Below, piece by piece: positions 7,080 to 58,563 of a DNA stretch of 64,000 bases; within the stretch, counting starts at the first letter, position 1, and each line of letters starts with the position of its first letter. The DNA is from Paraspadella gotoi (taxonomy: Eukaryota > Animalia > Chaetognatha). The stretch is from contig CM119266.1 in NCBI GenBank assembly GCA_051294375.1, forward strand, positions 7,085,431 to 7,149,430, in the 5' to 3' direction. A program made the translations under genes and the position numbers. A model generated the notes under the pieces. It made no database searches and was not told where the DNA came from. It worked only from the letters and a program-made list of their open reading frames with translations.

Positions 7080-10000
7080 ATGGACGGAAACGTTGAGGTG
7101 AGTTTGTGGGTCGGGGTGGTGGCGGAGGGGCGGGAAGGATGGGTGGGTTTCCGGCCAGGGAGAGGCCTGGCTTTTTCATGTCCCACGTCCCGCGCAAAGG
7201 GGCGGAGGAGATGTTACGAGACGATGGCCGATTTGACCTTAGCCACGCGCCAACTTAATCGAGGGTCAGCGATTAGATTTTCTGGGTAATGATGCTTAAC
7301 TTGGTCGGTGATGATTGTTTAAGTTCGGTTGTTAACTATCTATATGGTAACAATCCTAAAACCGCCGCTAGAAAAACGCTGCCATTTGCAAACCTGTAAA
7401 TATTTTTTCAATGTTAATTACTAATTTAAAAATAAAAACCAAAACTATTTATATGTGCAAATTATGGATGAAAAGATTGAGCGATTGAACATTTTTTTGT
7501 TGCTGCCTATAGACATGTAATTAATGAATTTTAAATCCTTTTAAAAATCTTTTTAGCATAACAGTATAGTAAATACAATTATTTCTGTAGCAATATCCTT
7601 ATAAATCGTTAAATTTCAAAATATTTTTTTTAGATTTGGATTCGACGTAAAAAACTAAAAAAACTTTTATAAAATAAGTTATATAATATTTTAATTTTTA
7701 GATCACAAAAAATGACTAAAACGTTTTAATATATATAAGTTTTGGGTAACTTTATTATTCGACGTCCGTAACCAACTTTATGTACCAGCGGTCGGTGCTT
7801 TGTTAATCCATTTAATTTTGTTTTCCCTCGAGTGTCGAGTCTTGGTTTGCTCAATAATATCTAATTTTTTTAATAAATAATAATAGTTTTAAATTTATTT
7901 TAATATTTTTATGTTGAGGTAGAAAATGAATTGTTTGATGTACAATGAGTTTTATTAAGAAACATAAAATTCGGACTTGAATATAAGCCTTTATCAGCGC
8001 AAAAAGAATTGATTTTTGAAACAAATATTTTTACAGACTCTTCAAATATTGTGAAAATATTTGTTTCACAAATCAATTCGTTTTTGCGCTTTTGAAGGCT
8101 TACATTGAAGCCGGAATATGTCCGAAATTTATATTTCTAAATAAAACTCGTTGTACACAAACAATTTATTTTTTACCTTAAACAAATAATCAAAATGAGG
8201 GTAAAATAAATAATATTTTGGTTATATTTTTTAAATTGTTAGCAATTGGGTTAGGGGTGGTTAGGGTTAGCCGAGGTTTCGAAATTAAATTTGTGATATA
8301 AAGATTTTCTGATTAGCGGGGTTTTCCGTCTCTTGCTCACCCTTCTGAGAGAATCAATATCGCAGGGTTTAACGAGTCTTTAAAGATCAAGAACTAGAAG
8401 AAAGCTATAGAGCAAGCATCGGTAAGCAATAGTAATACCAATGACCTCTCAGGTAAGCTCGGCTTAGCTACTCAATACAAACAATGTAAACCATATAATT
8501 GATCACTAGACCAATACGAAACCAATACTAAACCCCGACGATGGCTAATTAATATTAATGCGATTTGTAACGAATGAAATCATGATTAAACAAAGTAATG
8601 AAATAACGATGAACTGTATTGTTTGTTTATATTGTTTATATTTTTAAACACTTTTACAAAAGGTAAATAAGATCGACGGATTACGACGAGAGTTTGTCCA
8701 ACATTTCTACCCTTACCAATGTCCTTTTTTTTGCGTAATGAGATTTTTACGTCGCTCATAAGAAGCGCAAAATTCGGTCGGCAAATGTAAAAATAAGCCT
8801 AAGTTTCTACTACATAGAATAAAAAAAGTCATGAATTTTCACCTTTTTTCCCATTTTAAACGCTGAAGATGATAGAATTTTTGATTTGAAGAGACAGTAA
8901 TTATTGTTATGTATTAGTGACAGAACCGTTCAATATAAGCACTAAGCAGTCCCTGAGCTTCGGATCAGGCTGTAACACCATGTTACAGGCGGGTTAAGCG
9001 CCCCGTCCCTCTTAACTGCTAGAACCCCAGACCTTTGGGTTGGGAGGTGAATGACATGCCTCCGGCACCAATGGCCGCTGATGAACAGTTGGTGGATTTT
9101 AATCCACCATACATCCCCCCCCTCCCGTAGGGAGAAGTCTGTTGCGTCTCTTCAGTGAATTATTGTTGGTGGAAATTTCATCACCAAGTTGAGGCATATT
9201 GCCTGATGTGTTGTTGGCGGAAAGTGCATCGGCAGGTTGAGGCATGTCGCCTGAAAGTGTTTGTTGCTGTTGTGTTCGGAAGTCGGGCTCACCAATGAGA
9301 CAGTAATTATTGTTATGTATTAGTGACAGAACCGTTCAATATAAGCAGTACCCGAGCTTCGGATCAGGCTGTAACACTGTTACAGGTGAGTTAAGCGCCC
9401 CATCCCTCTTAACTGCTAGGCGGCCACCAGGCTAGAACCCCGGACCTTTGGGTTGGGAGGTGAATGACATGCCTCCGGCCGCTGATGAACGGTTGGTGGA
9501 TTTTAGTCCACCATAGATTCAACTTATTATGAAGAATCTGAATCTTTAATAAAAGTTTTAAAAACATTATTTTTAAAATTTACTATTTATAAAAATATTA
9601 CAACAAATATATTATGTTTTTCTATTCTGTTTCTGAGACAATATGAACAAAATCTCACATCTAAATATCCTTGTTCGATCTTTCAAATAAATTTTTTGTT
9701 CTTGAGTGCTCCACTCTATTATATATGCCTTAGCAGGAAGATAGATTTGAAAACCGTCTCTCATTTTTAAACTCTTTTTATATTAAATTTTTTTCTCCGA
9801 CTTTACTATAAAAAAAATTTTGAATAAAATGGTATCAATATTATTATCTTCTAAAACCTCTTGCAAATATCAAGAGAATGTTTTTATGAATACTATAATA
9901 TAAAGTTTAGCCTGCCTAACCTAAATTTAATTAGGATAATCAAAACCGAGACTTTGTCCCCCCAAAAAACTGCATAGTCAAGGCCAAAAACCAAATTAAT

Positions 10001-10796
10001 GTCAATATGGGCAGATTTCGAAAGCTTGGCGTCTTGGGAAGCCAATGGAGGTAGAGCGCGATCGAAAATTCCCATTTTATCATGCCCAAAAATGGTATTT
10101 AAATGGACTGGTCAGGCCGTTTTTTTTCCCTATTCTAAGAAAACTCCTGGCTTTGAGTAAAAAAGACCAAATCATACATATTAGTACAGTTTCCGAAACC
10201 TTATTGTCTTCTCTACATGATGAAAAAAAGCAAAATTAAAATTCTTTGCAATCTTAATTGCTTGATAAAGCAATCAAATGAACTGGTTTTTTAGGTGAAA
10301 ACTGCATAGTCAAGCCTTCATTTTTTTCAATTTGATCACAATTGACAGAAACTGTATTGATTTTACTATTCAAATCAGGTAGAGCGCGGGCTTAATTCAA
10401 AACGTTTTCTCAATATAATGCAAAATTTAAAAAAAGGTCCAATAAAAACTTATTAAAACAAAAATCGTCGCACAGTGTTGCTTGTGAGTTCAAAAGCTAG
10501 AAAATAAATTTTTAAATTTTTTATATTATTATTATAATAATAAAAAATATTTATAAATATAATTATAGTATTGAAAATAATTTTTTTTATTCAATCTGAG
10601 AAAGGTAGTACTATATATTAAAAGTATATATATATAAAAAATATATTTTACAATAAAATTAGTTAATTTTTTTAAACTGCAAGTTTTTTTTTATTATGGT
10701 ATGATTAAAAATATAAGATTAATAAATTTTAATTTAAATAAAATATAATAATCATATTAAATATAATAAATTTAAAAAAATTTTATTTTTTTATTT

Positions 10797-10827
<31 letters not shown>

Positions 10828-13800
10828 TAAAAATAATAATAATAATAATAATAAATAATTAATAATAAAATATAAATATTTTATTTTTAATTTTATTTTT
10901 TTTAATTATAATTATTATTTTTATTTTTATTATTATTATTTATTATTATTATTATTTTATTATTATTATATAATCTGATAATAATATATATTTTATTATA
11001 AAATAATTTTATTTATTTATTTAAAATATAAAAAATTATTTTTTTAATTTTTTTAATTTTCAAATAAATTTAAAAAAAAATTTTTATAATTAATATATAT
11101 AATAAAAAATATTTTTAACTGAACGGGATTTTTCTGAAAAATTCAGGCCCAGGATCTCACTGTGCGCCGGTTCTAAAGCTTAGTACTACGCATAGTACTA
11201 ATCTTTGTTGGATCAAAACGAGCTCGATTTTAAAGGAAAGTTGATCGGTTTGAAGAGCGATTTTTGCGATTGCTTTTTGGCGATTACTTTTGAACGGATT
11301 GTCGGATTATGATGAAATTATGCATGTAGATAATGTTTGTAATTGTCTATCGAACGCTACCCAATTTGATATAAAACAATGATTTGTTTAGAAACGATGC
11401 TCATCCCCATAATAATATAAAGTTTAGCCTGCCTAACCTAAATTTAATATAGGATAATCAAAACCGAAGACTTTGTCCCCCAAAAAAATGGCTGGAGGGC
11501 AAATATAAGATTATTTAATTCTGATTGGCTTTAAGGCCAGGGATCACTCAACCTAAAATTGTAGACATCTTAATTTACTGTATCTTAATCATTTTCTTAC
11601 ATCTTGTAAGAGGTTTTCTATTTAAAAATAATCGAAACTTTTAAAAATCTACCCAAAATGTTCATAAAAATTTAAAACAAATTTTTTTTTCGGTAAACTA
11701 GATTTTCAAAAGAAAAATATTTTTTTAACTGTAAGCTAAATTTCTACAACCAAATTTTCAACTTAAAACTGATTCTTTACAGTAAACTCAATTTCTTACT
11801 TCTATATTTAATTCTTCTTTTGGTACAAGTACATACTTGGAGTTGTATCACTTATAAGTCTAAAATAAACTACTCTACACTTTTCCAGATGAATTTTTAT
11901 GCTTTTATGAGTTTTATGAGTTAAAAAACTTATCAGATTTATTTGAAATTGGCTTTTTACTTCATGTAAATGTTTATATCATAATATAGTTGCCCTATTT
12001 TCAAGGGAATCTCTGAAAAAAAAAATCAAATCTGAATTAAAAAAATTAAAAACAGTAAGCCATTTTTTTAAGACTTTGGCGTTACAAAACTCCATCATCA
12101 CATCCCGTGCTTGTGTATGTTGTGGTGAATCTTGCAAAAGTAATTAGTACAGAATTTAACTTTCTTGACGAAGTGAAGTTAAAAACGAAGAGTTGCAGCT
12201 CAAACCGTTGGACTCTTCTTGAAGAAAAAAATATCTTAGGCAAGAAAAGAAAGATGGGGGAGATTCTATGAGCGCGTTTTTTGGAAAAATGTTTTTCGTT
12301 TCAAAGATATTAAGGAATTAATCACAAAAATTTACTAAAAATATCAAAATTTCTATAAAGGAAAAGGCAAATTTTGAAAGTATCTTTTCATAAAATCGGA
12401 GTTCGTTACCTAAAGGTAATTCATGTTAAATTTCATGAGAAACCGCCTTACCGTTTGGGCTGCAACTCTTCAAATAGGTTTCTTTTATTTTATATAGTAC
12501 CAAAAAAATCGAAAAAACGATGACGCCTTTGAAAAAATAGTAAAGTGAATACATTTTCGAAATCGTCAGCTCTCCTTTCGAAATCCGAGCTCGGCTTTAG
12601 CCTAATTATAATTTGAAATGAGTGATCCCGGACCTTAATAAATCGTTTTTTGAGGCTTTTTCATGATACCCATTAGGCCGGAACAGGTTGAAAACTGGAA
12701 GTTCTCTCAAATAAATAATGGTTAAGTGACTGCTAGAGAACGGGGGGACATGTGTGAGGCATCTCCCGACAGCTGGCGCTCAGGGCTTTGGACCTGCAGT
12801 GACCACCCCATGTCACTGGCGTGTTTATGCCGACACCATCACACTTTAACCAGCGTGACCATGAGGGGATTAAACCAGGAACTCACGGTTGGTGAACGAG
12901 TACTTAGCTGTCCAAGCGAATGGGACGAGCTGAGTTTTACCAAGCTATATGGGAGGCAAATTTAGGATTTGCCACACATGCCCCCTCAAGACAGCACACT
13001 GGGGTCCTCAAGCCCAGAGTGACTGTCTTGAGAGTAGACGGACTCTTTGCCATAGTGAGAGCGAGCGAGCGAGAAGTAGGGCATAGGCGTGGGATGCATA
13101 CCCTTAAGCAACGACGTGAGCGACGGTACGCAGCAGTTGCGTGTTCGATAGTAGGGCTCACCACTTATGGCAACGGGGGGACATGTGTGATGCCTGGGGT
13201 GTGAGGCATCTCCCAACAGCTGGCGCTCAGGGCTTTGGACCTGCTGTGACCACCCCATGTCACTGGCGTGTTTATGCCAACACCATCCACTTTAACCAGC
13301 GTGACCATGAGGGGATTGAACCCGGAACTCACGGTTGGTGAACGAGTACAATGGGACGAGCCGAGTTTCACCTAGCTATACAGGAGGCGAATTTAGGATT
13401 CGCCACACACCTCACGTTTTTTCCCACTGATTTAGAACATGGTATTTCCAAAGTTTTCGCAATAAATCATCTGATGTAGCTACTGTTATTGAAATTTTTA
13501 ACGATGCGTTTCGTACAATTATTTTGTGTTATAATTTATGTCAAAACTCAATAACATTAATCATTTGGTTTTGCTAGGTTACAAACTTTTTAGCCAATAT
13601 CATACTCAATATTATAGGTATTATTAATCTATTTTATAATATTTTAAATATTTTCCATTTTCATGCAAGATGGATCTGGAGTTTTGGTACGAATTGAATT
13701 CGACTGGGATCCCCGCCGTCGCTACCGCCGATCCTCCCCCGTCGTTGAGGAGGAAACCCGGCAAGTCACAGTTTTTACAGGTTCGTTTTTTGGCGACTTT

Positions 13801-16800
13801 AATTCTGCCGCTTATTATAACATTTGACGATTTAATTTATAAAATGCCTTTTTGACTCTGAATCCAGTTGCCGTGGGAATCAACAGACGGCGAATCCAGT
13901 ACTCCATTCTCAATTGCTGAAGGTGAGTCACGTGTTGTCGATCTATCACTTTTTCATTTTCAAAATTTACTCCCGCAATTATTCGATTTAAATGAAGCTG
14001 TGTCTACCAATAAAAGTGATTCAAAGCGACATGGTTTACCCTCCAGGCGAAGCGGCGATGTCCCTCCCCGTCCGTAACTCAAGTCTCCCCTCGACCAACC
14101 CTCAACCAAAGAATGTTCTCTCCACTCCCCCTAAAACAGACATGTAAGTTCACCTCACTTATTTTCATTTATTCGACGGTTTAAAGAATTATAAAAGAAT
14201 CCAATGCCACCCCGTCCCACCCTCATCCAGAGCCGCGTCCGTTCCCGCGGATTCCCCCGAATCCACCGCCACAGCCGCCTCAGCCGCCTCAGCCGCCTCC
14301 TCCGCTTCCCTCACTTCCAGCGGAAAAAAGAAGAAAAAGAAAAAGAAGAAAAGCGGCGGAGTCGGCGGCGGCGCAGTTGGCGGCAGCAGCGGCGGTGGCG
14401 GCGCCCGCGAAGCTCCCGCCTCTTCCCCCCGTCCTTCGCCCTCGGGAGATTTTCTAAACGGCGCCACAGACGGCGCCGGTTGCAGCCTGACCAACGGCGT
14501 CCTCAGCGACGCCGACGGTAATGTCTCTCCCGTCTCCTTCCACTCCCTCGATTCCAACGACGCCGCCGTCCTCGCCAACCCTGACATCACCTTCGAGTTT
14601 GACGCCCCCCTTCCCCCCGCCGACGACGCCGCTTCTCCTCCCTCGGCGCCGCGACGCCACCGCGCCGGCGCCCCCGCCGAACCCGAAGTCGCCCATAGCG
14701 CTTACACGCGACTCACGCCTAAAGTTGTCCTCGCGGACGCGCGCGAACCCGAAGGCCGAAAAGTTCGGTCGCAGACTTCACGGCGCGTGGAGGAAGCCAG
14801 CGTGGAGTTTCAGGTGGCGCTGCCGGTTGAGGACGACGCCGCCACCGACGCTGAGAAGAGAGACGCGTCGAGACGGAAACTGGCGTCTTTCGATGACCCC
14901 GAAACCGATGACGGCGCCGAAGCGGACGACGCCTTCCGAGGAGGCGGAGAGGCGGCGCCATTGACCGACGTCGAGGATAAACGCCGCTCGCGTTCGGTCG
15001 GTGATGACGAGACGCCGTCGACGACGACCGACGCCGCCGTCACGCCCTCTGCCCACGAAGACGTTACGGTAAGAAATGATGACGAGAGATTAAATCTGAA
15101 ACGGAAATATTTTTTGGGAGAGTGGTAGAATACTCGCCTGCCACGCGGGCGGCCCGGGTTCGATTCCCGACCGATGCGAATTCTGCGTACCCCCTAACGG
15201 GTAATGGTGATACTTCTTTGGTCACCCCACGCTCATCGAGACTCACGGTGTGGCAGAAAGACTCACTCCAACCGTGGAATGATTGATCACGGGCGGCCGT
15301 GCTCAGACGGCGACAGGAAATCGACACTGTAATAGATCAGAAGAGAAACACAGCGATGATCAAAAACCACAGAAAACTCATCAGTAACCCAACATCTCTC
15401 CTATTATTATTAATAACTCATGATAGCTGAAAAGGAAAGGGAGTGAATAATAAATATCGATCAATAAATAGTAAATGTAAAATGTTTTATTCGCCAAGTC
15501 CGATAATGAATCTTCCCGAAAGTTTCTTCCCGACTTCTCGATCCACATGTTCGCCCTTTGGTGTCGCTAATGACGATCGGCGATTGACCGATCATCTCTC
15601 GGCCCCTGTTCTTAGTCGAAGACAAAACAAATCGATGAGAGATTATGATGATGATGATGATGCTTATATCATCTCTCGTGGTTAAGAACCGCCACGTCAA
15701 TACCAGTGATACTTTAGATTACTCCGACATTAATATAGGATATTGCGATGATTGAAATCAGGCCGCGATGACGGCAATTATGATGATGACGATGATGGTT
15801 CGATCGGCAGAGAAGCGAAACCACGTGGGTCATCATCTTTCGATCGCGGCTTCTCTCGTTTCTCGGGATTTTTTTTTTTTTTTTTTACTTTTTTTTTTTT
15901 GGCAAATCAGCAGTTTTTCGCGATTGAGCTTCGATTCGATGTGTTTCACGTCATTCGGAAAGATTTAAAATCCTAACGATGTGGGGTCGGAAGTATTAAT
16001 TTTTTTGCGGAGTCGGCTAAATGAAAAATCGGAACGGACGGCCGGCCGGAACTTTTTGCGTGCGTGTTTGTGGAGGAGGGGTTAGTTTAAATTAGAAAAA
16101 AAACAAATTTTATTGCAACGGGAGGATTGCCTGTGATACCTGGGGCGTGGGGTTTCTCACTCACTGTCTGCGAGCCCTCAGTGACCGCTTCCTGTAACTG
16201 GCATGTTTAAACCGGCTCCGTCACATTTAATCCAAAACCGGGAAACCCAGGGATTGAACCCGGGACGCACGGTTGAAACGAGATGATTTAGTCTTGATGT
16301 AGCCATTGAGACGAGGCTGAGGACGGACAGCAGTGAGGCAGCCGAGTCGTGCTGCCACAATTTTTTATGAAGTTTCAATTATTCGCCTTAAATTTGTCCT
16401 ATCTTTTTCGCGACTCCTGTTTAAAAAGGACATTCCCTTTTCAGTTGACGGGATCTTCGACGACGCTGGCCGGAATTAGCGACGCCGCCGCCGCCAATTA
16501 CCCGCTCATCGACGCCGCCTCCGGCGAGGAAAACAACGACGACGACGAAGACAAAGTCGACGAGGACGATGACATAATCAACGGCCCTAGAACGCCGTCG
16601 CCCATTCAGGGTTTGTCGGCCAACGGTGAGACCGAAAAAAATATATTTTAATACTTTAACTCTATTAAAAATGTCCAATGATAAAAATGAATAGGCGAAG
16701 ACACCGTCTCCAATTCGGCAGCGCCACTGGCGAGTCCCGAGGATCTCACCGACATCAGTACGAGTTGCGGTTCCTCCGTGCAGTCGGCCTGCTTCGAGGC

Positions 16801-21200: not shown

Positions 21201-23614
21201 AAATTAAATGCGGACAAAGATTTATTAAAATAAAATTGTGTGATTCATTCAAATTCTTAACCACTCAGATTCGCTGAAATCGATCTCCCTCAACCACAAA
21301 CCGGTGGCTCTACAACCCCGCGGCCTCATCAACAAATCCAACTGGTGCTATATCAACGCAACTTTGCAGGCGAGTCAGGAGTGATGAAAGTGACTTGCGA
21401 CAATTGGATAATCCGAGGATGAAATTATTATTATGTTCTTTTGTTTTCCAGGCGTTGCTAGCGTGTCCTCCGTTTCTGAATTTAATCAGATCCCTCGTTT
21501 CCGTTTCCGCTCTGGGCACGCCGAAGGAGTAAGTGTGTGGTGTCTTTGCAAATTACCATGAGATCTCATTTGCATATAGTAGTAATTTTTTTTTTACTTG
21601 TAATGTGTTTGTTCGCTTTGAATATGTGGCCTATTTATGGGTTTTGCCTATTTTATTTATATTGATTATTAGTCTACATGATTCATAGATAATTTACATT
21701 TTTATTAGAAAAGTTATGACTTTAATGATTGATGGTATATCTCCAAACTGGCTGACCTTTTCATCACTATTAAAATTAAAACTCTGAATGAATCACACAA
21801 TTTTTCCCTTGTTCCTCAAGATCGTCGCCGACTCCGATCTTGGACGCCCTCTGCAATTTCGTCTCCTCCTTCCAACAAGCGCGGTCCTACCCGGTCAGCA
21901 ATAAAAAGAACAAAGTGACGGAGTTCAACCCGGGCACGCCCTTCGAACCCGTCGCCATCTACAACATGCTCACCTTGATTAAGTCCAACCTCTCTGAGAA
22001 GGTGAGTTTTTGAGAAAGGCTGGATAAAGTCTGTCAACGAATCGTCGAGGCTGTGCGTAACGGGTTATATATAATCGGTCCCCCGCTTCGTTGGCAAAGC
22101 GTGACGGTGTGGGAGTATAAACGCGGCAGCAGGCGGTCACTGATAGTTCGAAGCCCTTTAAGTCAACTGATTAGGTGCTCTGCATCTCGGGCATCACAGG
22201 TGATCCCCGCGGTAATATTAGTCAAACAGTAATGAATAGAATTGTAAAAAAAGGAATCAGAAGGAAACGTTACGGAGATCAAGTTAGAAAATTTATTTAA
22301 AAAAGAACAACTTTATATAATTAATCGCTTAACGAAAAATATCGAATCGATTAAGGGTCGGCAAGAGGACGCGGAGGAATTTCTCGGCTGCGTTCTCAAC
22401 GGCGCTCACGAGGAGATGGAGTCTGCATTCGGCGCCCTCGATCCCGCGCCTTCCCACAACGGCGGCTTCAACAGCTTCAAGGCGCCGGAGGGAAAGTCCA
22501 AACTCGTCCCCAATGGCGACGCTTTCAAAACGCCGGAGGTGAGGAAGGGGAAAATATTTAATAGATAATAAAATCTATAATAACAGACGAACTTCGACAA
22601 TTTTTCTCCCATTCCCCTCCCAAAAGGTGGAAGAGGACGACGGCGGGTGGGAGGTGGTTCCCCCCAAGCGGTCGGGCGCCGGCGCCCTGGATCCCTCTCG
22701 TCAGGCTAAACTCTCCCCGACAGCCATTTCCGAGATTTTCGGCGGCCAACTCCGCATGGAGCTGAAAATCAGCGGGAAGGCCTCCAAGAAGCCCTCGGCC
22801 AACCTCCAGTCTTTCTTCACTCTTCCGCTCGACATTCAGGTTCGAGTATAGGAATAACAATTTTGTTTTATGAATTTATAATAAACAATAATTGTAATTA
22901 GCGGTTATTCTTTTTTCTTTGGAAAAACGAAACAGTCGGACAAAGTGACTTCAGTTCAAGAGGCGTTAGAGAGATTGTCGATGAAGGAGCACGTGGAAGG
23001 GTATACGGATTCCAAGACCAAGGTCAGTTGCATTAAATGATTCTTATTCTTCAAGCACTATTATATATTATATTATGTTATATTGTATTTAATCTTATCT
23101 ATCTATCTCATTCGCAGGCTGAAGTTGAGGCTTGGAAATTTACCCTTTTGGAGAAGTTACCTCCCGTGCTTATCCTCCACCTCAAATACTTCATTTACGA
23201 TGCCAAAGGCGGACTTCAAAAACTCGCCAAAAAAGTCGACTACCCCGTCGACCTCGAGATTAGCAGAGACATTCTCTCTCATTCCATTCGCACAAAGGTC
23301 CCAAATCGCTACAAACTTTTCGCAGGTAAGAATTTTATGAAATTTCCAAGTTGAACAAACCTAACCTTATGAATTTTCTAGTTTGACATTTTTGAATCTT
23401 AACATTTCCCCTTCCAGTCGTTTACCACCACGGGAAGTCGGCTTGCGGCGGCCACTACACCACGGACATTTACCACATCGGACTCAACGGTTGGATTCAC
23501 ATGGACGATCAACAAGTGATGAAAGTGCCTCTCGGACGCGACGAATCCTTCAAGCACGTCCCGCTCAGAGTGCCTTACCTGCTCTACTACAGAAGATGTG
23601 ATCTCCTACAATGA
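7080..23614 (+). CDS. USP10: Ubiquitin carboxyl-terminal hydrolase 10 (multi-exon, long disordered N-terminus; 5' exons tentative)
   Basis: Cys box [18 protein letters not shown]|ALLACPPF (21316-21480), [10 protein letters not shown] (22356), [10 protein letters not shown], His box [13 protein letters not shown], and end [14 protein letters not shown] (stop 23612-23614). Confidence 0.9.
7905..8185. repeat. Long imperfect inverted repeat (foldback/MITE-like)
   Basis: TGTACAATGAGTTTTATT...AGCGCAAAAAGAATTGATTTTTGAAACAAATATTTT mirrored by AAAATATTTGTTTCACAAATCAATTCGTTTTTGCGCT...AATAAAACTCGTTGTACA; centre ~8043. Confidence 0.8.
8945..9020 (-). ncRNA. Twister ribozyme, type P5 (family A LTR)
   Basis: AGCAGT TAA GAG GGACGG GGCGCT TAA CCC GC CTGTAAC-ATGGT-GTTACAG CCTGA TCCGAAGC TCAGG G ACTGCT. 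T1 is CCG:CGG; one P2 mismatch; P1 minimal. Confidence 0.75.
9344..9417 (-). ncRNA. Twister ribozyme, second LTR of family A (GC->AC at T2)
   Basis: Same fold. P2 CTC/GAG and L4 TCCGAAGC are retained; the conserved GC is mutated to AC. Confidence 0.6.
9895..11488. repeat. ~75-bp direct repeats (9895-9968, 11412-11488) flanking a 1.5-kb segment
   Basis: ATAATATAAAGTTTAGCCTGCCTAACCTAAATTTAAT...CTTTGTCCCCCAAAAAA occurs twice. Confidence 0.8.
10471..11164. mobile_element. Non-autonomous Transib/RAG-like DNA transposon
   Basis: Termini CACAGTG...CACTGTG, flanked by CGTCG/CGCCG (5-bp TSD, 1 mismatch); extremely AT-rich interior. Confidence 0.6.
12772..12854 (-). ncRNA. Twister ribozyme, type P5, apparently intact
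   Basis: GCTGGT TAAA GTGT GATGG TG-TCGG-CA TAA ACAC GC CAGTGAC-N8-GTCACTG CAGG TCCAAAGC CCTG AGC GCCAGC. P1-P5 pair; T1 CCA:TGG; T2 GC:GC. Predicted cleavage between 12827 and 12826. Confidence 0.88.
13219..13300 (-). ncRNA. Twister ribozyme, second LTR of family B
   Basis: Same motif with a 1-nt deletion in P2 and one P3 mismatch; UAA, GC, UCCAAAGC and GAUGG are retained. Confidence 0.8.
15121..15178 (+). pseudogene. 5'-truncated tRNA-Gly(GCC) (pseudogene or SINE head)
   Basis: AGTGGTAGAATACTCGCCTGCCACGCGGGCGGCCCGGGTTCGATTCCCGACCGATGC matches tRNA-Gly from the D-loop onward; the 5' acceptor strand is absent. Confidence 0.85.
16111..16359 (-). mobile_element. Solo LTR, family B-related, decayed twister
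   Basis: TGTGGCA...GCAATA on the - strand with 4-bp TSD ATTT. ATGT GACGG AGCCGGTT TAA ACAT GC CAGTTAC..GTCACTG AGGG is present; L4 is deleted. Confidence 0.75.
18357..19078 (+). mobile_element. Helentron-associated (DINE-1/HINE-like) element, 5'-truncated
   Basis: Homologous to 29168-30020; 3' subTIR TTGCGACGAT; (CT)n tracts. Confidence 0.7.
22032..22217 (+). mobile_element. Degenerate solo LTR with decayed twister (22090-22167)
   Basis: GTTGGC AAA GCGT GACGG..TAA ACGC..GTCACTG..TTCGAAGC..GTCAAC, plus the shared tail GCATCACAGG...GTAATA. The 5' boundary is uncertain. Confidence 0.65.
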
Positions 23615-25895: not shown

Positions 25896-27265
25896 TCAGT
25901 TGCTCCAATTTTGCGGCGTCATCCCCAGAATCAACGCCGCGATGATCCCGACGAAGAGAGAGAAGATGAAACCCCAAATGATAAAAAGCAACGCGCACCT
26001 GTAAACAGTTCGCACAGAATTAAGTGCACGCGAGAAACAAAAATCCCTTGTACAATTGAAGGGGGGGGAAGCTCGAGGGAAAGGACGAGAAAAAAATTAG
26101 ATTCTTCACTCGTGCCGTCCCTCAAGGCGGCAATAACTTTTTAACGAAGAAAGATAGTCATGAGAATCCATTTCACTTAAGGCCTGAAATCACCCGATTA
26201 AAGATTGTATGTTTTTCGTTTTTAAGATATCGGAGGATTTATGACCTAAAAGTAATTGTTTTTCACAAAAAAATTTGAATTGAAAAAATATGATAGAATT
26301 GGAGTCCTTGATCAAAAATAAATCGTGCAAATTTGAGGAAATTCCGCTTCTCCGTTTATGCTACAACACTTCTTTGAATGTGCTGACAGAACAAATCCCA
26401 TTGACCGAGAAAATGAATACTTTGACCGAAGTAATGACCTCAGAAGGTATGAATACCGAATAATCTCACTGACCAAATGAATGGCCTCGCTTACCTTCCC
26501 CGGATGAGTTGGTCGTGAGCGTCATCGCGTTTTCTCGCCTGACGCGCTGTGCAAGAGTAGTAGATGGCAAAGAGGCCGAAGAGGGGGTTGAAGAGGAAGC
26601 AGCAAAGCGAGAACCACTGTGGGCGGCGGAAGAGAACAACAAAAAGAGTAAGGCTCGAACTGAAATCTCGATATTTTTTCTGGGATGATCTCGTGGGGGA
26701 GATCGATAAGCTTGCTTATTATTGAATATTGAAATGTAGGTAAAATAAAAAAGACAAAGATAAATATGAACTCGGCAACAACAAGAAAAAAAGTAAGAAA
26801 ACACGATAAACAAGGAAAAGGTATAAGTGGTTGTGACCCGCGGTCATGTGGTCCAAATGGTGAGCCTAATTATCGCTATGTTATTAATAATTGCCGCCCT
26901 CGCTCACCATGTAAGTCCTCGGATGTTTGATCGGCTCCGGGGCGCATGGGTTGGCACAGGCGATTACGCAGCATTCGGCCAGACCCCCGGGGCAGCAGGG
27001 TTCGCAGCCGCAGCATCGGCCGCAACAACCGTCTGGCTCCGTCTTTGGCTGCTCCGTCGTCACCAACGCCCCCTAGTTAGGAAGGTGTCGCAGGAGGGGT
27101 AATTTATGGGATTGGTACGAACGGAGTGCGGGCTTGTTTTGTTCTCATTTCAGTTAGTTTTTTTGTTTGTCAGTTTTTCTAGTGGGGAAACGTTTTCACT
27201 GGAATAAGAGGTAAGTTTACTCGGGTCATCGTGGGTGGACTCACCGTGCTCCCTCGATCTCCCAT
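25896..27265 (-). CDS. CD225/dispanin-family membrane protein with Cys-rich N-terminus
   Basis: Four in-phase GT-AG exons (27265-27245, 27072-26908, 26616-26495, 25998-25896): MGDRGST...PRTYMWFSLCCFLFNPLFGLFAIYYSCTARQARKRDD...CALLFIIWGFIFSLFVGIIAALILGMTPQNWSN*. Confidence 0.85.
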
Positions 27266-28483
27266 GGCTGCGACGAATTATTGATTATCCTCCGAGATTC
27301 GAATTCCTGCAAATTGACAGAAGAATATTTGAAGTGGAGACGATGGACTGAGGCAACGTTTTCGTCTTTTGAATTTAAAACGCTCGATTCTTGTCAGTTG
27401 CGTTCCCACGCTTGATCAATGATCATGGTTATTAATCATAATCAACTTTGGACTAAGTGACTTTTACTTATCCTTGGCGTCACATTGGCTCAATCTATAT
27501 AGTGTCAAATGTAACTACTTTATAAAGCTTACTTCAAAAACTGAAATGTGGCCAAGGAGATGAAAAATTCAGTATCTGCGAGTCGCCTTACCTCTGGTCA
27601 AAATCGAAAACAAAGAATTGAAACGAAGACGACGCTTTAATGGCGGCGGCGGAATAACGTCGAATATTCTCCCTCTTTACTGAGTCACTCTCCCAATTGA
27701 AAAAGTAAAAAAGGTCGAACCTCAACCAAAAAAAAAAAGCCAGTTTCAACTCTTATCTTCTTCCTCAACACAAACTCGATCCTTCTGCCCGAATTCATCC
27801 TCTTTCTTTCCTCTTCCTCAACTACTTTTCTTCCTCATTCTCTTCCTCCTCATCCCCGGGAGCGCCTGGGGCTCAGATCGACGACCTCCTCCTCCTCCGC
27901 ACGAAGACGGCGAAGGAGACTTTCGTCACAACAACAACCACAACTATATATAATTGGGAAACGGGTCATCGGGTCACGATTTGGAAGATGTGAGGCTGTG
28001 ACTTTAAATTGAGGGGGGATAAGAGAAAGATCGAGAAGTTGTGATTTTCTTAGAGTGGAGAGACGATTGACGAGTTGTGTGGGGGCGATCGGGATGACAT
28101 TTGACATGATTCGATACCTTAGAATCGATCGTCACTTAAGCTAAGGTTTCAATCTTTTGTCACTTCGTCATGCATATTTGTAACTAAGTCAACTGAACGA
28201 ATAATAGTAATTAAATTATAATTATTATTCCAAATAGTCTTGCTTAATATTAGATATTTTGTTTATGTATATTAAATAGATGTACATTATCTGTTTCAGT
28301 TTTTACTTCACATATTCTATTCAAAAAGAGCATTCCCGTTCCGTGTATGTCCTACAGAGCGACCTCTTCACTTCAAGCCTTAAAAACTCAAAACGTTATT
28401 CTTTTGTTCGAGGAACGAGTTTCGACGGCGATTGACGTCCCACGCGCTCGCCTTACCTCTCTTCTTTCGCCGCCGCCGCCGCC

Positions 28484-29685: not shown

Positions 29686-29747
<62 letters not shown>

Positions 29748-34206: not shown

Positions 34207-34496
34207 TTTGTTTTTTTTTTTTGATTACCTGACAGAGTTTAGTTCGGAAGCGGGAGATTGCTTTCTGCCCTCTGTGATTTATATTTATTACGAAGATATT
34301 TGTATTGATTAATTTTTTTAATGAACAGAAATCAACTTTGCATGTTCTTGCATCAGGAGTCCTCACAAGACTTTCTTTAAAAAAACACCTTTCCGTAGAT
34401 TTACTATCCTTTTTGAAAAGTCAGGAGTTATTTAAATACTACAGTATAGTTTAAATTCATTCAGACTTGTCGGATTTCAAAAGTTTGGTTAAAAAA

Positions 34497-52853: not shown

Positions 52854-55800
52854 ATGCGTCATTTCCTTTTCATCTTCCTTTTATTTTTTTCTCGCAATGA
52901 AGCCTCCAGGTTAGTATTTTTTTTCATTTAGTAAGTTTGTCTAGCTATTTAGTTGAGAATAAATTAAACAGGAGAGGCTGGTGGACTAGTCCATTTCCTG
53001 CGGAATGTGTCGAGATCCTGGAGGGCGTCTCCACCACAGCCTCGGGCCTCACGGACTGTATCCTGAAAAACTCATTCCCTCAATTCACATCTTGCGAGTT
53101 TTGTCACTCTTACTTCACTCAGGTGAGTTCTCCGGTTATCCGCCTGAGATTATTGTCACGTTTTGAGTTTAATGTTTTGATATCAATTTGTGTTAAAACT
53201 ATAATTTAGTTTGGCGAATGGGTTTTGCGGTATTTATATTTCCCCGAATTGTTATTGAAGTATTTACAAATTGTAGCTGTGTGGATTAATTCTTGTAGCC
53301 TTAATTTCTTGGTTTATTTTATATTTAATTGTCGCTTTTACTGAAGTTTATTCACATTCGGTTTTTGTTAGGAATATTTAGACATCTCAATACTATCTTA
53401 ACGTCGAACTTGTTGCGGTATCTTCACACCGCCTCACGTCTTACCATCGTTCAGCCAATCCCATTAGCTCAGAGGGGGAACGCACCATCCTAAGCGTTAC
53501 ATTCCATCCACAGTCCTAACGACTTCCCTCTGAGTTGGCAAAGCGCGACCCTTACAGGGAAACGCGCCAGTGACTGGATGGAGGCGTCACCGAGGGTCGG
53601 AAGCCCCCAAAGCCAACAGTGAAATGCCCCATCCCAATTAGCATCACAGGAAACCCGGCAGTTGCAATAATCTCCTATTTAAATTTTAAATATTAACAGA
53701 TGCGCAAATACTACTCGAGACTCGAGAATGAAAAACCAACGAACTCGTCTAAGCCATGTTACGACATCCTTTCCTTTGGTGAGAAGGTCAACTTGATTGA
53801 GGTACGGATTTTGCTCAAATTGCACTCACCTTTTTGGTTTAAATAGAAGTTTAATTTTTTTTATTTCAAATCGATTCGAAGGATATGGGAATGGTTACTG
53901 AAAACTTTAACGTTATAATCATGTTATAAAATTGGCACAACCAATATAAAAATTATCCATTCATTTAATACATAAACTATCTTTCCCTGACTTTGGACAG
54001 GCTTTGATGGTTTAAGGCCTCCATCACTCTTACAAGATAATGACATAGCAGGTCCCTGCATGCTTTCAATCAAGACTCTCTCACAGTCTCGTTTATTCAC
54101 TCCCAGAGTACCTGGCTTCCCTATAAATGAAGTGGTATAATGTTTCAAAGAATGTTTCAATTGTATGAATGTATTGTATATTAGAACACCAATTCTCTAA
54201 GTTTAGTCGGGTAAGACTAGAAGTATCAACCCTCCCTTCCCCCCCCTCATCTCCCGCCCGCCTCCCACAGAACGTCTACTCCGCAGCGACCCACCTCTGG
54301 CGATTACCCCACTGCGCCGCCTGCTTCGACGACGACGGCGAAGAAATGACGATGAACAACGCGACGCTCGATTTCTTCGCCCTCTACGCCGACTACATCG
54401 CATGTCAGACGCGTAACCAAGGCAACGCCAGCGCCGTCTGCCGGGAGTGCCGGAAAGACTACGATACCGTCAATAGTTATTACGGTAAGTTAACTTAATC
54501 ATTTCTTTTCATTTCGGAGGCGTTAGTAGCGTTGCTTAATTGTTTGCTCGAGTACATGAAGTTTAATTAGGTTTTACGTCCTATTATTTTGAATTTTGTT
54601 AACGAATTGACATTAAAACGTCATCGTCATCGTATACCTGCAAAATTAACCAGGAAGTAAATGACAACAAAAAAAATTCTTCAATTAATATTTTCTAACC
54701 TTTTTTCTAGAAAATCGTCGGATTGAATTTAAGTTAATTGTGCACTTTCGGGTTTGACATTCATTTGACACTCTTAAAAACTTTTGAATTTCAATTAACA
54801 ATAGTATTTAATTGGATGAATAACTATCGCCACCAGACAAACAATTCACCGGAAATGGCGCCATCTGCATGGACGTGAGCAACGCATGGAACCGGACTCG
54901 CCAGGATTGGAACCTTGAGTTCAGCTGTCGCGTCATCCCGCGGGATCTCTTCCTTCTCGGCGCCTTCACCGTTTTCTTCCTTCTCCTCCCCGTCATCTTT
55001 TACATCAGCATGTTCCTCAACTCGGAGTACGAACGCGTCCCCGAGGAAAAGATCGAGGTTGGCCTATAGTTGGGGGGGGGGTGGGTCGGGTGTAGTGACG
55101 TGGAACTTGTGAAGAAAGTTAGGTTAGGAATTTTGCTCCTTGACTTTAATTGGCGTTGTAACCATGTACGTCCCACGTTGCTTTTTATTGCTCAAAACTT
55201 CATAACAATCAAAACATGAGTTTTTTCTGTAATTATTTATTGAATACTATTCTGAGCTTTGAAAATTTCTTGTTTCGGCATTATTAACAGAGCAGAGGGG
55301 ATAAGACTTGAAGCTAAATACAAAAGCGCGACAGATTAGATTTGACGGACCCCCTTGTGACCTCGAGTCGCGCAGTGGTCTAAGCTTAATAACCGGTTTT
55401 CCAAATCCCCCGCGTTGTTTTAAAAGTCTATTCGCACGAGTTTTTACATTGAGCTCGAATTTTTAAATGCATTGACGGATCGATAATTGTCACCTCATCG
55501 CTGGGCTTGCATGTTTGGCGAGGAAAAATTATTGGAGTATATTAGTTAACCTTTTAACACAGTCTTAACACGATTTCATTAGCGAAAGCTCTGTTTAAAT
55601 TAATCCACGTAATATTGACATTCAAAGAGCTTCTGTTAACACATTCGTAAATTTAAAATATTTTATTACTTTACCGAGCAGCGTTCAAACGATTTACGAT
55701 ATATAGCTGTATCGGTTACTGTTTTTCAATATAATCTTTATATGTACGTCCCCAAAAAAAATTGTAAATTCGCGTGTTTAAACAATTGTATTCAACGCCA

Positions 55801-58563
55801 ACATTTTCTTCAACCTTCGATTAATTAATGACCACGGCTCCTCAAGCAAGCGACTCGACGAAATGATGTCTGGTAGCTCCACGTCGCGCCTTCTCTCTAC
55901 TCTCTACCAACGACGATTCTTGACCTGGGAACCGGCTTTGCTTTAATGGCACCGTCACCGCAAAGCTCTGAAACAGCGATGGAGACCAAGAAACGCGTTA
56001 AAGTCGTCGAGTGGCATATGCTGAACAAAGTCAAGTATTATCCGTTACAAATGGTTTCTGCCGTCACTATTCGCTGCGCGCTTTATCCCTTCACGCTCGT
56101 CAAAACGCGGATACAGGTTGGCGGAAGTGATTAGAAGCGAGTGATCTAACAGAGATTGAGAAGTGTAAATTGTGGCATTGATCCTAAAGTGATCCTCAAT
56201 TTTTTTTATTAAGATTCAAGATCAAAAGGCAGTCTACAACGGAACCTTCGACGCCATTCGAAAGATTCACCGCTACGAAGGCGTCCGAGGATTTTATCGG
56301 GGATTTTGGGTCAACTCCCTCCAGGTTTGTGAATACTCGTCTCTCGAAGCGATCGAGCCGATTAAGCTATTTGCTCCCCGATGATCTCAAAAGGTCTTCT
56401 CTAGCGTCTTCTACTTCTCCGCCTACGAGGGCGCTCGTCACGTAATGTCCACGCGACTGGGCATCTACCATCCAACGCCACGCGCGTTTGTGGGCGGACT
56501 CTGCGCCTCGATGGCCGGGCGCTTGGTCGCCGTCCCATCGGAAGTGGTGTCGCTGCAGTTAATGCTCGTCAGTGGAAAATCCTTGCCTTCGAAGGATAAA
56601 CTCAACGTTGCCAGGTTGAGGGGCGGGAGAGAGTGCGAGTATATGAGAGACTTAATGGGAGAGAGCAACCGCCGACCTGAAACTATTCTGTCCTTTTGTC
56701 GATATTTTTCGCTGCAGAATTGAAATTCCGCCGGAGGCGAGGAAAACTAAAACCGGCGTCTTCCGCGCCATCGTCGCCGAGATTTACCGTCGTCACGGCC
56801 TTCTCGGCTTCTACCGGGGCTACTGGATTTCAGTGGGCACCTTCGCTCCTCACAGCGCTCTGTGGTGGTCTTATTATCACTTCTACAATGGTAGGAATTA
56901 CATGAATTCGGCTAATTGTTATTGGATACAAAGTATTTGCGCCTTTTGAGAAATTAGTCAATTATGGCAACAGCCGGGTTGCCTGTGATGCCCATTGGGA
57001 TGGGGCATCTCACTGTTGGCTTTGGGGGCTTCCGACCCTCAGTGACGCCTCCAGTCACTGGCGCGGTTACCCTAGGACGGTCTCGCTTTGCCAACGCAGA
57101 GGGAAGTCATTAGGACTGTGGATGGAACACTACGCCTGGGATGGTGTGTTCCCCCTCTGAGCCAATGGATTTGGCTGAAGGATGGTGGACGTGAGGCGGT
57201 GTGAATATACCGCCACACAATCATGAATGTTTTTTTTTTTTTTGATGATTCTAACAAATGAAAAACATTCTGCCATGTCCAATTTTCCAGGTTTAATGTC
57301 GAAAACGCTGCCCGATTTCGCGCCCGCTCTTCTCGTCCAGGCGATCTCGGGCCCCTTGGCCGGGATGTCAGCCTCTCTCTTCACCAATCCCCTCGACGTG
57401 ATCAGAGCTAGAGTTCAGGCGAGAAAAGGGGAAGGGGAAAGAGTCGGTTTAGTTGGTGATTTTAATGAACGTTGCTCTTCATTTAGGCCAAGGGAAGCGG
57501 ATCCACAAAAGATGCCGTCATGAAGCTGTGGGCGAACGAAGGGTGGAGGATGTTGACGAAAGGTCTCTCGGCCAGGTTAGGGACATGAAGTTTACGAAAC
57601 TGAGTTATTTCGAAATTATTATTTTCTTATTTCAGTCATGATGTTAATTTAATATTTTATCTCTTATACTCCATTCATATCCTCTCCCAGACTTCTTCAG
57701 TCGGGATTCTTCTCAGTCTTCATGGCCGTCGGTTACGAAACCGTCAAACGCCTCAGCCTGAAAGAGGAGTACAAGGGCACAGTCCCTTGGTAGATCCGTC
57801 GCCGCCCATAAAAGAAGACGACGTCGCTGACACCAAACTGTTTCATTTAAAAATCGAAAACTCTCGTGTCGGAGCTGATACTCGGTTGGAGGGGGAATCT
57901 CGGGATCCCCGATGTCCACACGAATTTGTATCCAACATTTCCCATCTAAAGTTTAAAATCGACTCATTTGTTTTCGTCGGACATTGCCGACGGTTTATTT
58001 GCGTGCTATCTCTTTTTGGTGATCTCTTTAGTTTTAAATGGACATATTAGATCAAATTTTTTAGAACAAATATTTATTGGATTTTTATACTGAATGTTAT
58101 TTTTTTGATCTCATTGTCATTTGTTTATAGTTTATATGTTCGCATCAAATCAATTTTTTAATTCTAGTTCTTCAATCTCATGTGTAATCTTGCTCATATT
58201 TTTTAAAAAATTTAATCTGTGAAATGCAAATGAGTTAGTTAGATCATACTATTTAAATTAATTTTTATTTTTAATCGTTCAAAAGCTAAAAAAATAGTTT
58301 ATAATTTCATGTTTATCACATAATATCGATATTTATTTTCCTCCTGTCAGCGTGCGCTCTTGGACGGGATTCTTTCCGACTCGGAGGCGGAACCTGACGT
58401 CGAAGTCAACGTCAGCTTTTCTCTTGGCTCCGGAGAATCCACTGTAGATCATCGCCCTTTTCGCTTCAACTCTGACCCCGACATGATGCGGATACAACGT
58501 TCCGGCTCAGGCCTCGTTTTCACTGCGAGCCTCAGCACTAGCTCCCATCCAGATTTTAACTAG
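52854..58563 (+). CDS. OSTM1: Osteopetrosis-associated transmembrane protein 1-like (last exon uncertain)
   Basis: Signal peptide, CEFCHSYF, LWRLPHCAACF, VCRECRKDYDTVN, ICMDVSNAWNRTRQDWNLEFSC, TM FFLLLPVIFYIS. Confidence 0.8.
53411..53669 (+). mobile_element. Solo LTR with mutated twister (53534-53617)
   Basis: TGTTGCGG...GCAATA; inverted homolog of 56963-57217; TSD AACT/ATCT (3 of 4). UAA and T1 are altered. Confidence 0.8.
53980..54072. repeat. Dispersed repeat core (homolog of 2236-2328)
   Basis: Aligns with the reverse complement of 2236-2328. Confidence 0.7.
55946..57793 (+). CDS. SLC25A44: Mitochondrial carrier SLC25A44
   Basis: VEWHMLNKVKYYPL, RCALYPFTLVKTRIQ, GFYRGFWVNSLQ, APHSALWWSYYHFY, TNPLDVIRARVQ, GYETVKRLSLKEEY. 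Confidence 0.92.
56963..57217 (-). mobile_element. Solo LTR with perfect 4-bp TSD CAAT
   Basis: TGTGGCGG...GCCATA on the - strand; CAAT at 56959-56962 and 57218-57221. Confidence 0.85.
57015..57095 (-). ncRNA. Twister ribozyme, type P5, near-intact
   Basis: GTTGGC AAA GCGA GACCG TCCTAGGG TAA CCGC GC CAGTGAC-N7-GTCACTG AGGG TCGGAAGC CCCC AAA GCCAAC; T1 CGG:CCG. Confidence 0.82.

What the first reader, a model, noticed from the sequence alone, without database searches (positions are those of the whole stretch)
12739..13407. Twister-ribozyme LTR retrozyme in an animal intron (family B)
Seen: two ~240-bp LTRs, a PBS, a PPT, no coding capacity, and a type-P5 twister motif (UAA, P2, GC, P3, P4 with UCCAAAGC, GAUGG) in each LTR on the element's sense strand. 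Known: plant retrozymes are non-coding LTR elements with hammerheads in their LTRs that yield circRNAs; twister leaves 5'-OH and 2',3'-cyclic phosphate ends that RtcB can ligate. Inference: double cleavage releases a ~447-nt monomer (13273 to 12827) holding one LTR equivalent plus PBS and PPT, which could circularise and be copied by a helper LTR retrotransposon. I know of no described twister-based LTR retrozyme in animals.
Basis: partly seen in the sequence, partly recalled or inferred. Interest (0 to 1): 0.95.

Follow-up and report, generated by a model that had tools for sequence, protein, structure and literature searches.

The report
Twister-ribozyme mini-retrotransposons in an animal
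An invertebrate genome carries many copies of a small, protein-free jumping element whose two terminal repeats each hold a twister-type RNA motif predicted to cut itself, which would release a 447-base RNA that likely closes into a circle and is copied back into DNA, a design so far reported only in plants and with a different ribozyme.

Summary
12739-13407 (minus strand) is a non-coding mini LTR element (TRIM) with a 242-bp LTR, a primer site and a purine tract, lying antisense in an intron of a USP10-like gene. Contigs show over 100 distinct LTR-end junctions per run. The 3' LTR holds a complete P5-permuted twister. Rfam scores it weakly (21 bits, cut-off 67), but five more related insertions lie in the window, and across them pseudoknot T1 and helix P2 change in compensating pairs. 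Three of these relatives have exact 4-bp target-site duplications. New here: a tRNA-like Pol III promoter block sits just upstream of the twister, as in Helenus TRIMs. This copy is probably dead: damaged 5' LTR, last 6 bp and TSD lost. Best model (0.6): Pol III transcript, cut in both LTRs, 447-nt circle, reverse-transcribed by a Gypsy helper. Main rival: the twister only makes the 3' end of a linear RNA. Cleavage, expression, circle and helper are untested. Nine literature searches found no twister LTR element and no animal LTR retrozyme; the scan's index held no earlier report of it.

The parts
13166..13407 (-). 5' LTR, 242 bp, ends TGTGGC...TTGCCATA
   Evidence: Loose ends of contigs at 13407 (50 in X1, 45 in X2) and 13165/13166 (73+68 in X1, 73+70 in X2), with unrelated flanks (agreement about 0.43)
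13313..13322 (-). B-box-like GGTTCAATCC of the 5' LTR; the upstream A-box-like segment is lost in a 15-nt deletion in this copy
   Evidence: box consensus as in PMC10886601
13219..13300 (-). Twister of the 5' LTR, damaged (1-nt P2 deletion, P3 mismatch); predicted cut 13274/13273
13151..13163 (-). Primer-binding site; closest listed primer is tRNA-Trp (11 of 13 nt; family A 12 of 13)
   Evidence: compared by eye with Fig. S2 of PMC10886601; host tRNA not available
12977..13165 (-). Non-coding internal region, 189 bp; predicted to pair with the LTR end (8 bp) and to form hairpins
12981..12987 (-). Polypurine tract, 4 nt before the 3' LTR; its 3' part and the LTR start are predicted to pair over 12 bp with U5 of the 5' LTR
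12739..12976 (-). 3' LTR, lacking the last 6 nt; TSD lost at a junction with a neighbouring repeat
12855..12926 (-). tRNA-like block (A-box-like near 12919, B-box-like 12876-12867), likely Pol III promoter; limits approximate
   Evidence: (table 3); no ARAGORN or Rfam tRNA hit
12772..12854 (-). Complete P5-permuted twister with P3 and a 2-bp P1; predicted cut 12827/12826
12827..13273 (-). Predicted 447-nt monomer between the two cut sites (one LTR equivalent, PBS, PPT)
   Evidence: inference; folding
8887..9515 (-). Family A: complete related element, two LTRs with twister, same PBS, PPT, TSD AATC/AATC
16111..16359 (-). Solo LTR, B-related, TSD AAAT/AAAT, twister partly decayed
56963..57217 (-). 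Solo LTR, family C, same ends as B, TSD ATTG/ATTG, twister nearly intact
53411..53669 (+). Solo LTR, family C, TSD AACT/ATCT, twister core broken
22016..22222 (+). Partial LTR, further family, twister broken at T2/P3; limits approximate
7098..13867 (+). Inferred host intron of a USP10-like gene that holds elements A and B antisense
   Evidence: GT/AG sites joining ...GNVE and LPW..., matching VEFPW/PEFPW in homologs

Best explanation
This is a decayed copy of a many-copy, protein-free mini LTR retrotransposon whose LTR carries a tRNA-like promoter block followed by a twister-type motif, and it likely spreads as a twister-based retrozyme: a predicted cut in each LTR would release a 447-nt RNA that likely circularises and is reverse-transcribed by a helper. 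Steps. (1) Shown in sequence: LTRs, PBS, PPT, dispersal, 4-bp TSDs in relatives, conserved twister fold. (2) Inferred: Pol III starts about 50 nt into the 5' LTR and finds no T4 stop before the 3' LTR. [quoted passage not shown] (4) Inferred: host RtcB ligates the monomer, and the circle folds with the ribozyme blocked. (5) Inferred: a tRNA (probably Trp) primes a Gypsy-type RT on the circle, and the helper's integrase inserts full, solo or tandem copies with 4-bp TSDs.
For: Twister fold under selection. T1 reads CCA/UGG in B, CCG/CGG in A and CGG/CCG in C; P2 reads ACAC/GUGU, ACAU/AUGU and ACGC/GCGU in three families. On 8 LTR copies T1 is 95.8% paired, and the whole structure 80.6% against 71.5 +/- 1.6 in shuffles (0 of 500) and 26-42% when slid. 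Where the 5' LTRs of B and A break a twister pair, most contig depth carries the pairing letter (rows 13245, 13287; rows 9387, 9350, 9353). LTR machinery: exact 4-bp TSDs at 3 of the 4 relatives with both ends, the fourth 3 of 4 nt; a chance match is about 1% each. The circle folds at -170 against -135 +/- 5.7 kcal/mol (z -6.2, 60 shuffles), with P2, P3 and P5 at about 0 probability. Forcing the twister helices costs 16.2 kcal/mol in the circle and 1.6-7.5 in linear contexts. Plant retrozymes have the same layout, a blocked ribozyme and solo LTRs (PMC4918200). RtcB circularises animal retrozyme RNA in vitro, and tandem twisters make circles in mammalian cells (PMC7229834). P1 is dispensable (PMC5408937). 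No T4 run on the sense strand of A or B.
Against: No cleavage, RNA or circle data. Rfam scores are far below the cut-off (21.4 vs 67.2 bits), and family A gave no twister hit at E 10. With upstream sequence, nested folding prefers an 8-bp hairpin that hides the P5 and P2 strands (P5 probability 0); pseudoknots are not modelled. The isolated core is no more stable than shuffles (z -0.55). In one search the count of pairs with a two-sided change was not above shuffles (8 vs 6.0, 85 of 500), the rows are related, and the structure came from one of them. Family A's P2 has 3 positions with a C-A mismatch, also in most contig depth, and its circle folds less well (z -2.3). Part of the circle's 16 kcal/mol comes from this copy's P3 mismatch. 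The tRNA likeness is limited to boxes and a T-arm. Absence of T4 is weak evidence (about one run expected per element). No helper was found.
Confidence: 0.6

Rival explanations
1. The twister is active but serves only as the 3'-end maker (in place of the oligo-T terminator) of a linear Pol III transcript. The 5' ribozyme is held off by the competing hairpin, so RNA from the tRNA-like start to the 3' cut keeps a terminal repeat of about 100 nt and retrotransposes like an ordinary TRIM such as Cassandra or Helenus.
For: Helenus LTRs end their tRNA-like block in a T-run, whereas A and B have no sense T4. A competing 8-bp hairpin is predicted. Canonical PBS, PPT and TSDs need no circle.
Against: Both LTRs carry the same ribozyme and the same competing hairpin, so a 5'-only block needs an extra mechanism. 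Twisters can be very fast (PMC6154101). The monomer's strong fold pairs its two halves across the would-be junction.
Confidence: 0.22
2. The twister is a passenger. A tRNA-derived SINE or a piece of an RTE or Penelope-like element bearing a twister was captured into the LTR of a TRIM, and the ribozyme now has no part in mobility.
For: Capture of SINE heads is the proposed origin of TRIMp3 elements (PMC10886601). Twisters occur at the 5' end of Perere-3/RTE elements (PMC8501958). Most copies in the window are damaged.
Against: Compensating changes in T1, P2, P4 and P5 across at least four LTR families that differ widely elsewhere (mean column identity 59%) imply selection on the fold during the element's own history.
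Confidence: 0.12
3. It is not an LTR element but a dimer of a SINE, a non-LTR retrozyme or the pseudo-LTRs of a Penelope-like element, copied by target-primed reverse transcription.
For: tRNA-like boxes; many single-unit copies; animal retrozymes known so far are non-LTR.
Against: A PBS directly after one repeat, a PPT directly before the other, inverted ends and uniform 4-bp TSDs. Non-LTR retrozymes lack PBS and PPT and have longer TSDs. No A-tail.
Confidence: 0.04
4. The twister likeness is chance in an ordinary TRIM.
For: Sub-threshold Rfam scores.
Against: Strict descriptor 1 hit vs 0.01 expected; twister was the top Rfam family in both B LTRs and in family C; pseudoknot covariation.
Confidence: 0.02

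Closest known systems
Plant LTR retrozymes (Cervera, Urbina and de la Pena 2016, PMC4918200; passages read)
   Same: Non-coding, two LTRs each with a self-cleaving ribozyme, PBS, PPT, 4-bp TSD, solo LTRs, ribozyme predicted blocked in the monomer, Gypsy helper assumed
   Different: Animal host; twister instead of type III hammerhead; 670 bp with 242-bp LTRs instead of 1-1.5 kb; Trp-like PBS instead of Met; tRNA-like promoter block; circle not shown
Helenus / TRIMp3 (Kojima 2024, PMC10886601; parts 1-4 of 6 of the text, supplement parts 1, 7 and 10 of 11, two motif searches)
   Same: TRIM under 1 kb in animals with tRNA-derived A/B boxes in the LTR, tRNA 3'-end PBS (Trp is used by some wasp families), G-rich PPT, 4-bp TSD, many solo LTRs
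   Different: In the published families read, the tRNA block sits near the LTR's 3' end before a T-run. Here it is mid-LTR and followed by a twister, with no T4. The paper does not mention twister, and 10 different twister-loop words found no twister context in its sequence file (70-letter line breaks could hide some).
Twister ribozyme, type P5 (Rfam clan CL00120; layout from PMC8501958 Table 1 and PMC5408937, passages read)
   Same: UAA cut loop, GA, P2, P4, L4 ending AAGC, both pseudoknots, ends in P5
   Different: P1 reduced to a hairpin of about 2 bp, P3 present; scores far below Rfam cut-offs
Twister variants of Schistosoma Perere-3 (PMC8501958; passages read)
   Same: Twister with a weak P1 tied to a retroelement in an animal
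   Different: Perere-3 is an autonomous non-LTR element with one 5' ribozyme in P1 form; no LTR, PBS or circle
Animal non-LTR retrozymes (PMC7229834; bioRxiv 10.64898/2026.07.22.740005; passages read)
   Same: Ribozyme-bounded small RNA units in animal genomes, circularised by RtcB in vitro
   Different: Type I hammerhead, tandem arrays, no LTR, PBS or PPT, Penelope-like helper

Membership tests
TRIM (non-autonomous LTR retrotransposon) | Two LTRs, total under 1 kb, no coding capacity | tested here: met
TRIM (non-autonomous LTR retrotransposon) | PBS after the 5' LTR and PPT before the 3' LTR | tested here: met
   same arrangement in family A; other B-like copies bridge the LTR-PBS junction (records 3, 6, 20, 21, 22) and the PPT-LTR junction (record 19); no listed record spans a whole element
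TRIM (non-autonomous LTR retrotransposon) | Short fixed-length TSD | tested here: inconclusive
   Lost in this copy; exact 4 bp in 3 of 4 relatives with both ends, 3 of 4 nt in the fourth
LTR retrozyme | Hammerhead (type III) ribozyme in each LTR | tested here: not met
   No hammerhead hit; the motif is a twister, so it is not filed as a member in the strict sense
LTR retrozyme | Self-cleavage of the LTR ribozyme | not testable with these tools
   Needs an in vitro assay
LTR retrozyme | Abundant circular monomer RNA | not testable with these tools
   Only contigs available; no run on record as RNA
LTR retrozyme | Stable monomer fold with the ribozyme blocked | tested here: met
   Prediction only: z -6.2 for B, -2.3 for A
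Helenus (TRIMp3) | tRNA-derived sequence with boxes A and B in the LTR | tested here: inconclusive
   TGGCT and GGTTC boxes about 43 nt apart in B by contig majority; acceptor stem and T-arm in A; no tRNA call by ARAGORN or Rfam
Helenus (TRIMp3) | 4-bp TSD and tRNA 3'-end PBS (animal families) | tested here: met
   the TSD is shown in relatives, not in this copy
Helenus (TRIMp3) | Pol III transcription | not testable with these tools
   Also unvalidated for Helenus itself
Twister ribozyme | Conserved UAA, GA, L4 loop, P2, P4, T1 and T2 | tested here: met
   All present and paired in the 3' LTR; covariation
Twister ribozyme | Rfam model score at or above the gathering threshold | tested here: not met
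   Best 21.4 bits vs 67.2 for twister-P1; the overlapping same-clan matches scored lower and were not shown; not a member of the Rfam families as modelled
Twister ribozyme | Cleavage at U|A | not testable with these tools
   Needs an assay

The most novel reading that the evidence does not exclude
An old radiation of animal LTR retrozymes, at least four families in this one window, built from three borrowed parts: a tRNA-derived Pol III promoter, a P5 twister with almost no P1, and Gypsy priming signals. They make abundant ribozyme-bounded circles of about 400-450 nt. This would be the first LTR retrozyme in animals, the first with a ribozyme other than hammerhead, and a natural counterpart of engineered tandem-twister circular-RNA expression, missed so far because Rfam models score it below threshold.
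Probability: 0.55. Interest if true: 0.9.

Novelty: new variant of a known kind. Interest (0 to 1): 0.8.

Why it matters
Reviews up to 2026 split retrozymes into plant LTR types with type III hammerheads and animal non-LTR types with type I hammerheads. A twister-bearing LTR type in an animal would show that the circle-based route into the LTR pathway arose independently, with any ribozyme that leaves ligatable ends. It gives eukaryotic twisters, whose roles are mostly unknown, a second testable function. It also offers a short natural substrate for asking whether a Gypsy RT can copy a circular template without a terminal repeat. Because standard Rfam scans miss these twisters, similar elements may sit unannotated in TRIM libraries.

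Tried and rejected
No whole genome is held, so there was no genome-wide count, empty-site check or helper search. No RNA holder was listed. X9 is only guessed to be RNA and is contigs only, so it says nothing on expression or circles. Summed contig depth was not used as copy number. Pattern scans for the twister found 0 loci in metagenome contigs and viral contigs; these collections hold little animal DNA. The P1-form reading that cmscan gave was rejected: 2 of 4 P2 pairs fail and T1 has no partner downstream. Reading the element on the plus strand was considered because of a G-run/C-run symmetry and rejected: PBS, PPT, B box and twister all lie on the minus strand, and the symmetry is U5 pairing with the PPT region. 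The idea that published Helenus LTRs hide twisters was not supported (supplement parts 2-6, 8, 9 and 11 not read by eye). The automatic parse picked the wrong GA for the 57-kb copy and the wrong P2 register for the damaged copies; I read those. The first family A monomer limits were off by 1-2 nt and were redone. A PBS-like word at 26858 has no LTR pair. The host phylum was not resolved: the NDE1 tree groups it only with five unnamed proteins. Orientation bias (see noticed) is too small a sample to count as evidence.

Full report
WHAT IS IN THE SEQUENCE. On the minus strand, 13407-13166 and 12976-12739 are direct repeats with 210 matches, 12 substitutions and 4 indels. No genome is held, so I laid contigs of four public runs of the same organism on the stretch. 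In run X1, 50 contigs leave the element at 13407 and 73+68 at 13165/13166, each into unrelated AT-rich flanks (agreement about 0.43); X2 gives 45 and 73+70. At 80% likeness these include subfamilies. This fixes a 242-bp LTR with ends TGTGGC...TTGCCATA and shows a dispersed family. Two bases after the 5' LTR comes TGGTGAGCC (13163), and four bases before the 3' LTR a G-rich tract (12987-12981). Contigs of other copies, with 27-37 differences, bridge the LTR-PBS junction (records 3, 6, 20, 21, 22) and the PPT-LTR junction (record 19); none listed spans a whole element. The 3' LTR lacks its last 6 nt and abuts a truncated neighbouring repeat, so this copy has no readable TSD. None of the six ORFs of 60 aa or more has a Pfam match better than E 0.06.

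THE RIBOZYME. Rfam gives no hit at gathering score in the window. In E-value mode the best of 4227 families in both LTRs is twister-P1 (21.4 and 18.7 bits, E 0.12 and 0.69, cut-off 67.2); lower same-clan matches are hidden. That alignment forces a P1 form whose P2 fails. Read as a P5 permutation, following the layout in Table 1 of PMC8501958, the 3' LTR is complete: GCUGGU/GCCAGC (P5), GUGU/ACAC (P2), GA, UGG pairing with CCA of loop UCCAAAGC (T1), a 2-bp P1 hairpin, UAA, GC/GC (T2), a 7-bp P3 and a 4-bp P4. A strict descriptor gives this one hit in the window against 0.01 per shuffled window (2 of 200); allowing one P2 mismatch gives 2 hits against 0.14. The 5' LTR copy has a P2 deletion and a P3 mismatch, and at both places most contig depth has the pairing letter (970 of 1793 and 1922 of 2533 in X1). 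P1 is dispensable in twisters (PMC5408937), though PMC8501958 calls cleavage without it inefficient.

RELATIVES IN THE WINDOW. A profile of five LTR copies found three more. Family A (8887-9515) is a full element with the same PBS, a PPT and TSD AATC; its ends are fixed by contig loose ends. Solo LTRs at 16111-16359, 56963-57217 and 53411-53669 have flanks AAAT/AAAT, ATTG/ATTG and AACT/ATCT; a chance 4-mer match is about 1%. A partial copy lies at about 22016-22222. The eight LTRs are 59% identical by column, yet the twister pairs change together: T1 CCA/UGG, CCG/CGG, CGG/CCG; P2 ACAC/GUGU, ACAU/AUGU, ACGC/GCGU. Counted on the alignment, 80.6% of cells pair against 71.5 +/- 1.6 in shuffles (0 of 500) and 26-42% in slid controls, and T1 pairs in 95.8%. 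The number of pairs with a two-sided change was not above shuffles (85 of 500), the rows are related, and MAFFT misregisters parts of P3-P5. Covariation in a pseudoknot specific to twister is still the strongest evidence that the fold was selected in these elements. Family A is weaker: it has a 3-position P2 with one mismatch and no Rfam twister hit.

Directly upstream of the twister lies a tRNA-like block: TGGCT near 12919 (majority letter in contigs, and seen directly in the 16-kb and 57-kb solo LTRs) and GGTTCAATCC 43 nt later. Family A keeps an acceptor stem and T-arm. ARAGORN and Rfam call no tRNA, which fits a promoter remnant. This is the hallmark of Helenus TRIMs (PMC10886601), which in animals make 4-bp TSDs and share PBSs with Gypsy elements. 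The nearest primer in that paper's Fig. S2 is tRNA-Trp (12 of 13 nt for A, 11 of 13 for B). In the Helenus sequences I read, the tRNA block ends the LTR before a T-run and no twister follows. In A and B there is no sense T4 at all. The 5' LTR of this copy has lost the A-box segment, another sign that the copy is inactive.

CONTEXT. The host is an animal: all named NDE1 hits are metazoan, the best 56-59% identical; the phylum is unresolved. Downstream plus-strand exons encode a USP10-like protease. A GT donor at 7098 and an AG acceptor at 13867 join ...GNVE to LPW..., matching VEFPW/PEFPW near the N-terminus of two homologs. The element is therefore antisense in an intron by inference, not by RNA data, and would not cut the host message.

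MECHANISM. Cuts at 13274/13273 and 12827/12826 give a 447-nt RNA with no terminal repeat, so ordinary strand transfer would fail unless the ends are joined; this is the argument made for plant retrozymes (PMC4918200). Folded as a circle it is far more stable than shuffles (z -6.2; antisense -2.6; 15 control windows -3.3 to +1.4, the lowest of which overlaps the element). U5 pairs with the PPT and LTR start (12 bp) and with the internal region (8 bp), and the twister helices are blocked. Forcing them costs 16.2 kcal/mol in the circle and 1.6-7.5 in linear contexts, partly because of this copy's mismatch and without pseudoknot energy. The same calculation shows an 8-bp hairpin that competes with the twister in the nascent RNA. 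It may be the switch that protects the circle, or it may slow cleavage enough to leave a linear RNA with a repeat of about 100 nt. That is the main rival (0.22): the twister replaces the terminator. RtcB ligation of animal retrozyme RNAs in vitro, and circles from engineered tandem twisters, are reported in PMC7229834. I put the circle model at 0.6, a passenger ribozyme at 0.12, a non-LTR origin at 0.04 and chance at 0.02.

COMPARISON AND NOVELTY. It is a TRIM by the features I could test, apart from the TSD lost in this copy. It works like an LTR retrozyme but is not one in the strict sense, because the ribozyme is not a hammerhead. It is Helenus-like but differently built. Nine full-text searches returned no twister-bearing LTR element and no animal LTR retrozyme. 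Passages of PMC7761336, PMC9695139, PMC7229834 and bioRxiv 10.64898/2026.07.22.740005 place LTR retrozymes in plants and describe the animal ones as non-LTR; the first two place retroelement twisters in RTE/Perere elements. I saw passages only of PMC5680766, PMC6765202, PMC6154101, PMC13725137 and bioRxiv 10.1101/2022.07.19.500677. The original twister paper and the tandem-twister paper were not read. The library lacks most subscription journals, and Repbase and Dfam could not be searched. The scan's own index had no look-alike. One unchecked note (e1-6818684) reports P1-less P5-type twisters in Penelope-like terminal repeats of another genome, a possible source of this motif.

VERDICT. The feature is real, and the ribozyme identity is well supported by structure and covariation though not by Rfam score. 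Activity and circle are untested. New variant of a known kind; interest 0.8.

Noticed in passing
window 8887-9515 (-): Family A: complete element with TSD AATC, more heavily represented in contigs than B (10388 vs 4179 contigs laid in X1, each count including neighbouring repeats). A contig joint from 9515 back to 8886 points to head-to-tail LTR junctions in DNA runs.
   Followed up: yes
window 22016-22222 (+), 53411-53669 (+) vs 8887-9515, 12739-13407, 16111-16359, 56963-57217 (-): All six insertions lie in inferred introns of plus-strand genes (USP10-like, OSTM1-like, mitochondrial carrier). The 2 sense copies both have a broken twister core; 3 of the 4 antisense ones keep a complete or nearly complete one. 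This fits selection against cutting host pre-mRNA, but the sample is too small.
   Followed up: partly
window 9420-9495 (-): Family A's tRNA-like block keeps a 7-bp acceptor stem and a T-arm (weak mascRNA-like match, E 1.9), so it might be an RNase P/Z substrate; family B has lost the stem.
   Followed up: partly
window 26858-27100 (+): The same PBS word followed about 230 bp later by a G-rich tract, but no LTR pair found; possibly the remains of a related element.
   Followed up: partly
window 15127-15200 (+): tRNA-like fragment (looks like the 3' two-thirds of a tRNA-Gly, label recalled), not called by ARAGORN; weakly matches the LTR profile (E 0.04).
   Followed up: no
window 12400-12740: Another high-copy repeat abuts the 3' LTR and is itself cut at about 12740; a deletion with 2-nt overlap probably removed the element's end and TSD.
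   Followed up: partly
window 44116-45219 (+): The NDE1-like protein is only 56-59% identical to the best named animal hits and groups with five unnamed proteins on a long branch: the host seems to belong to a poorly annotated animal lineage.
   Followed up: partly
window 28436-30713 and 34455-35750 (+): Two similar strictosidine-synthase-like gene copies (Pfam confirmed for the second; 67% DNA identity over part).
   Followed up: no
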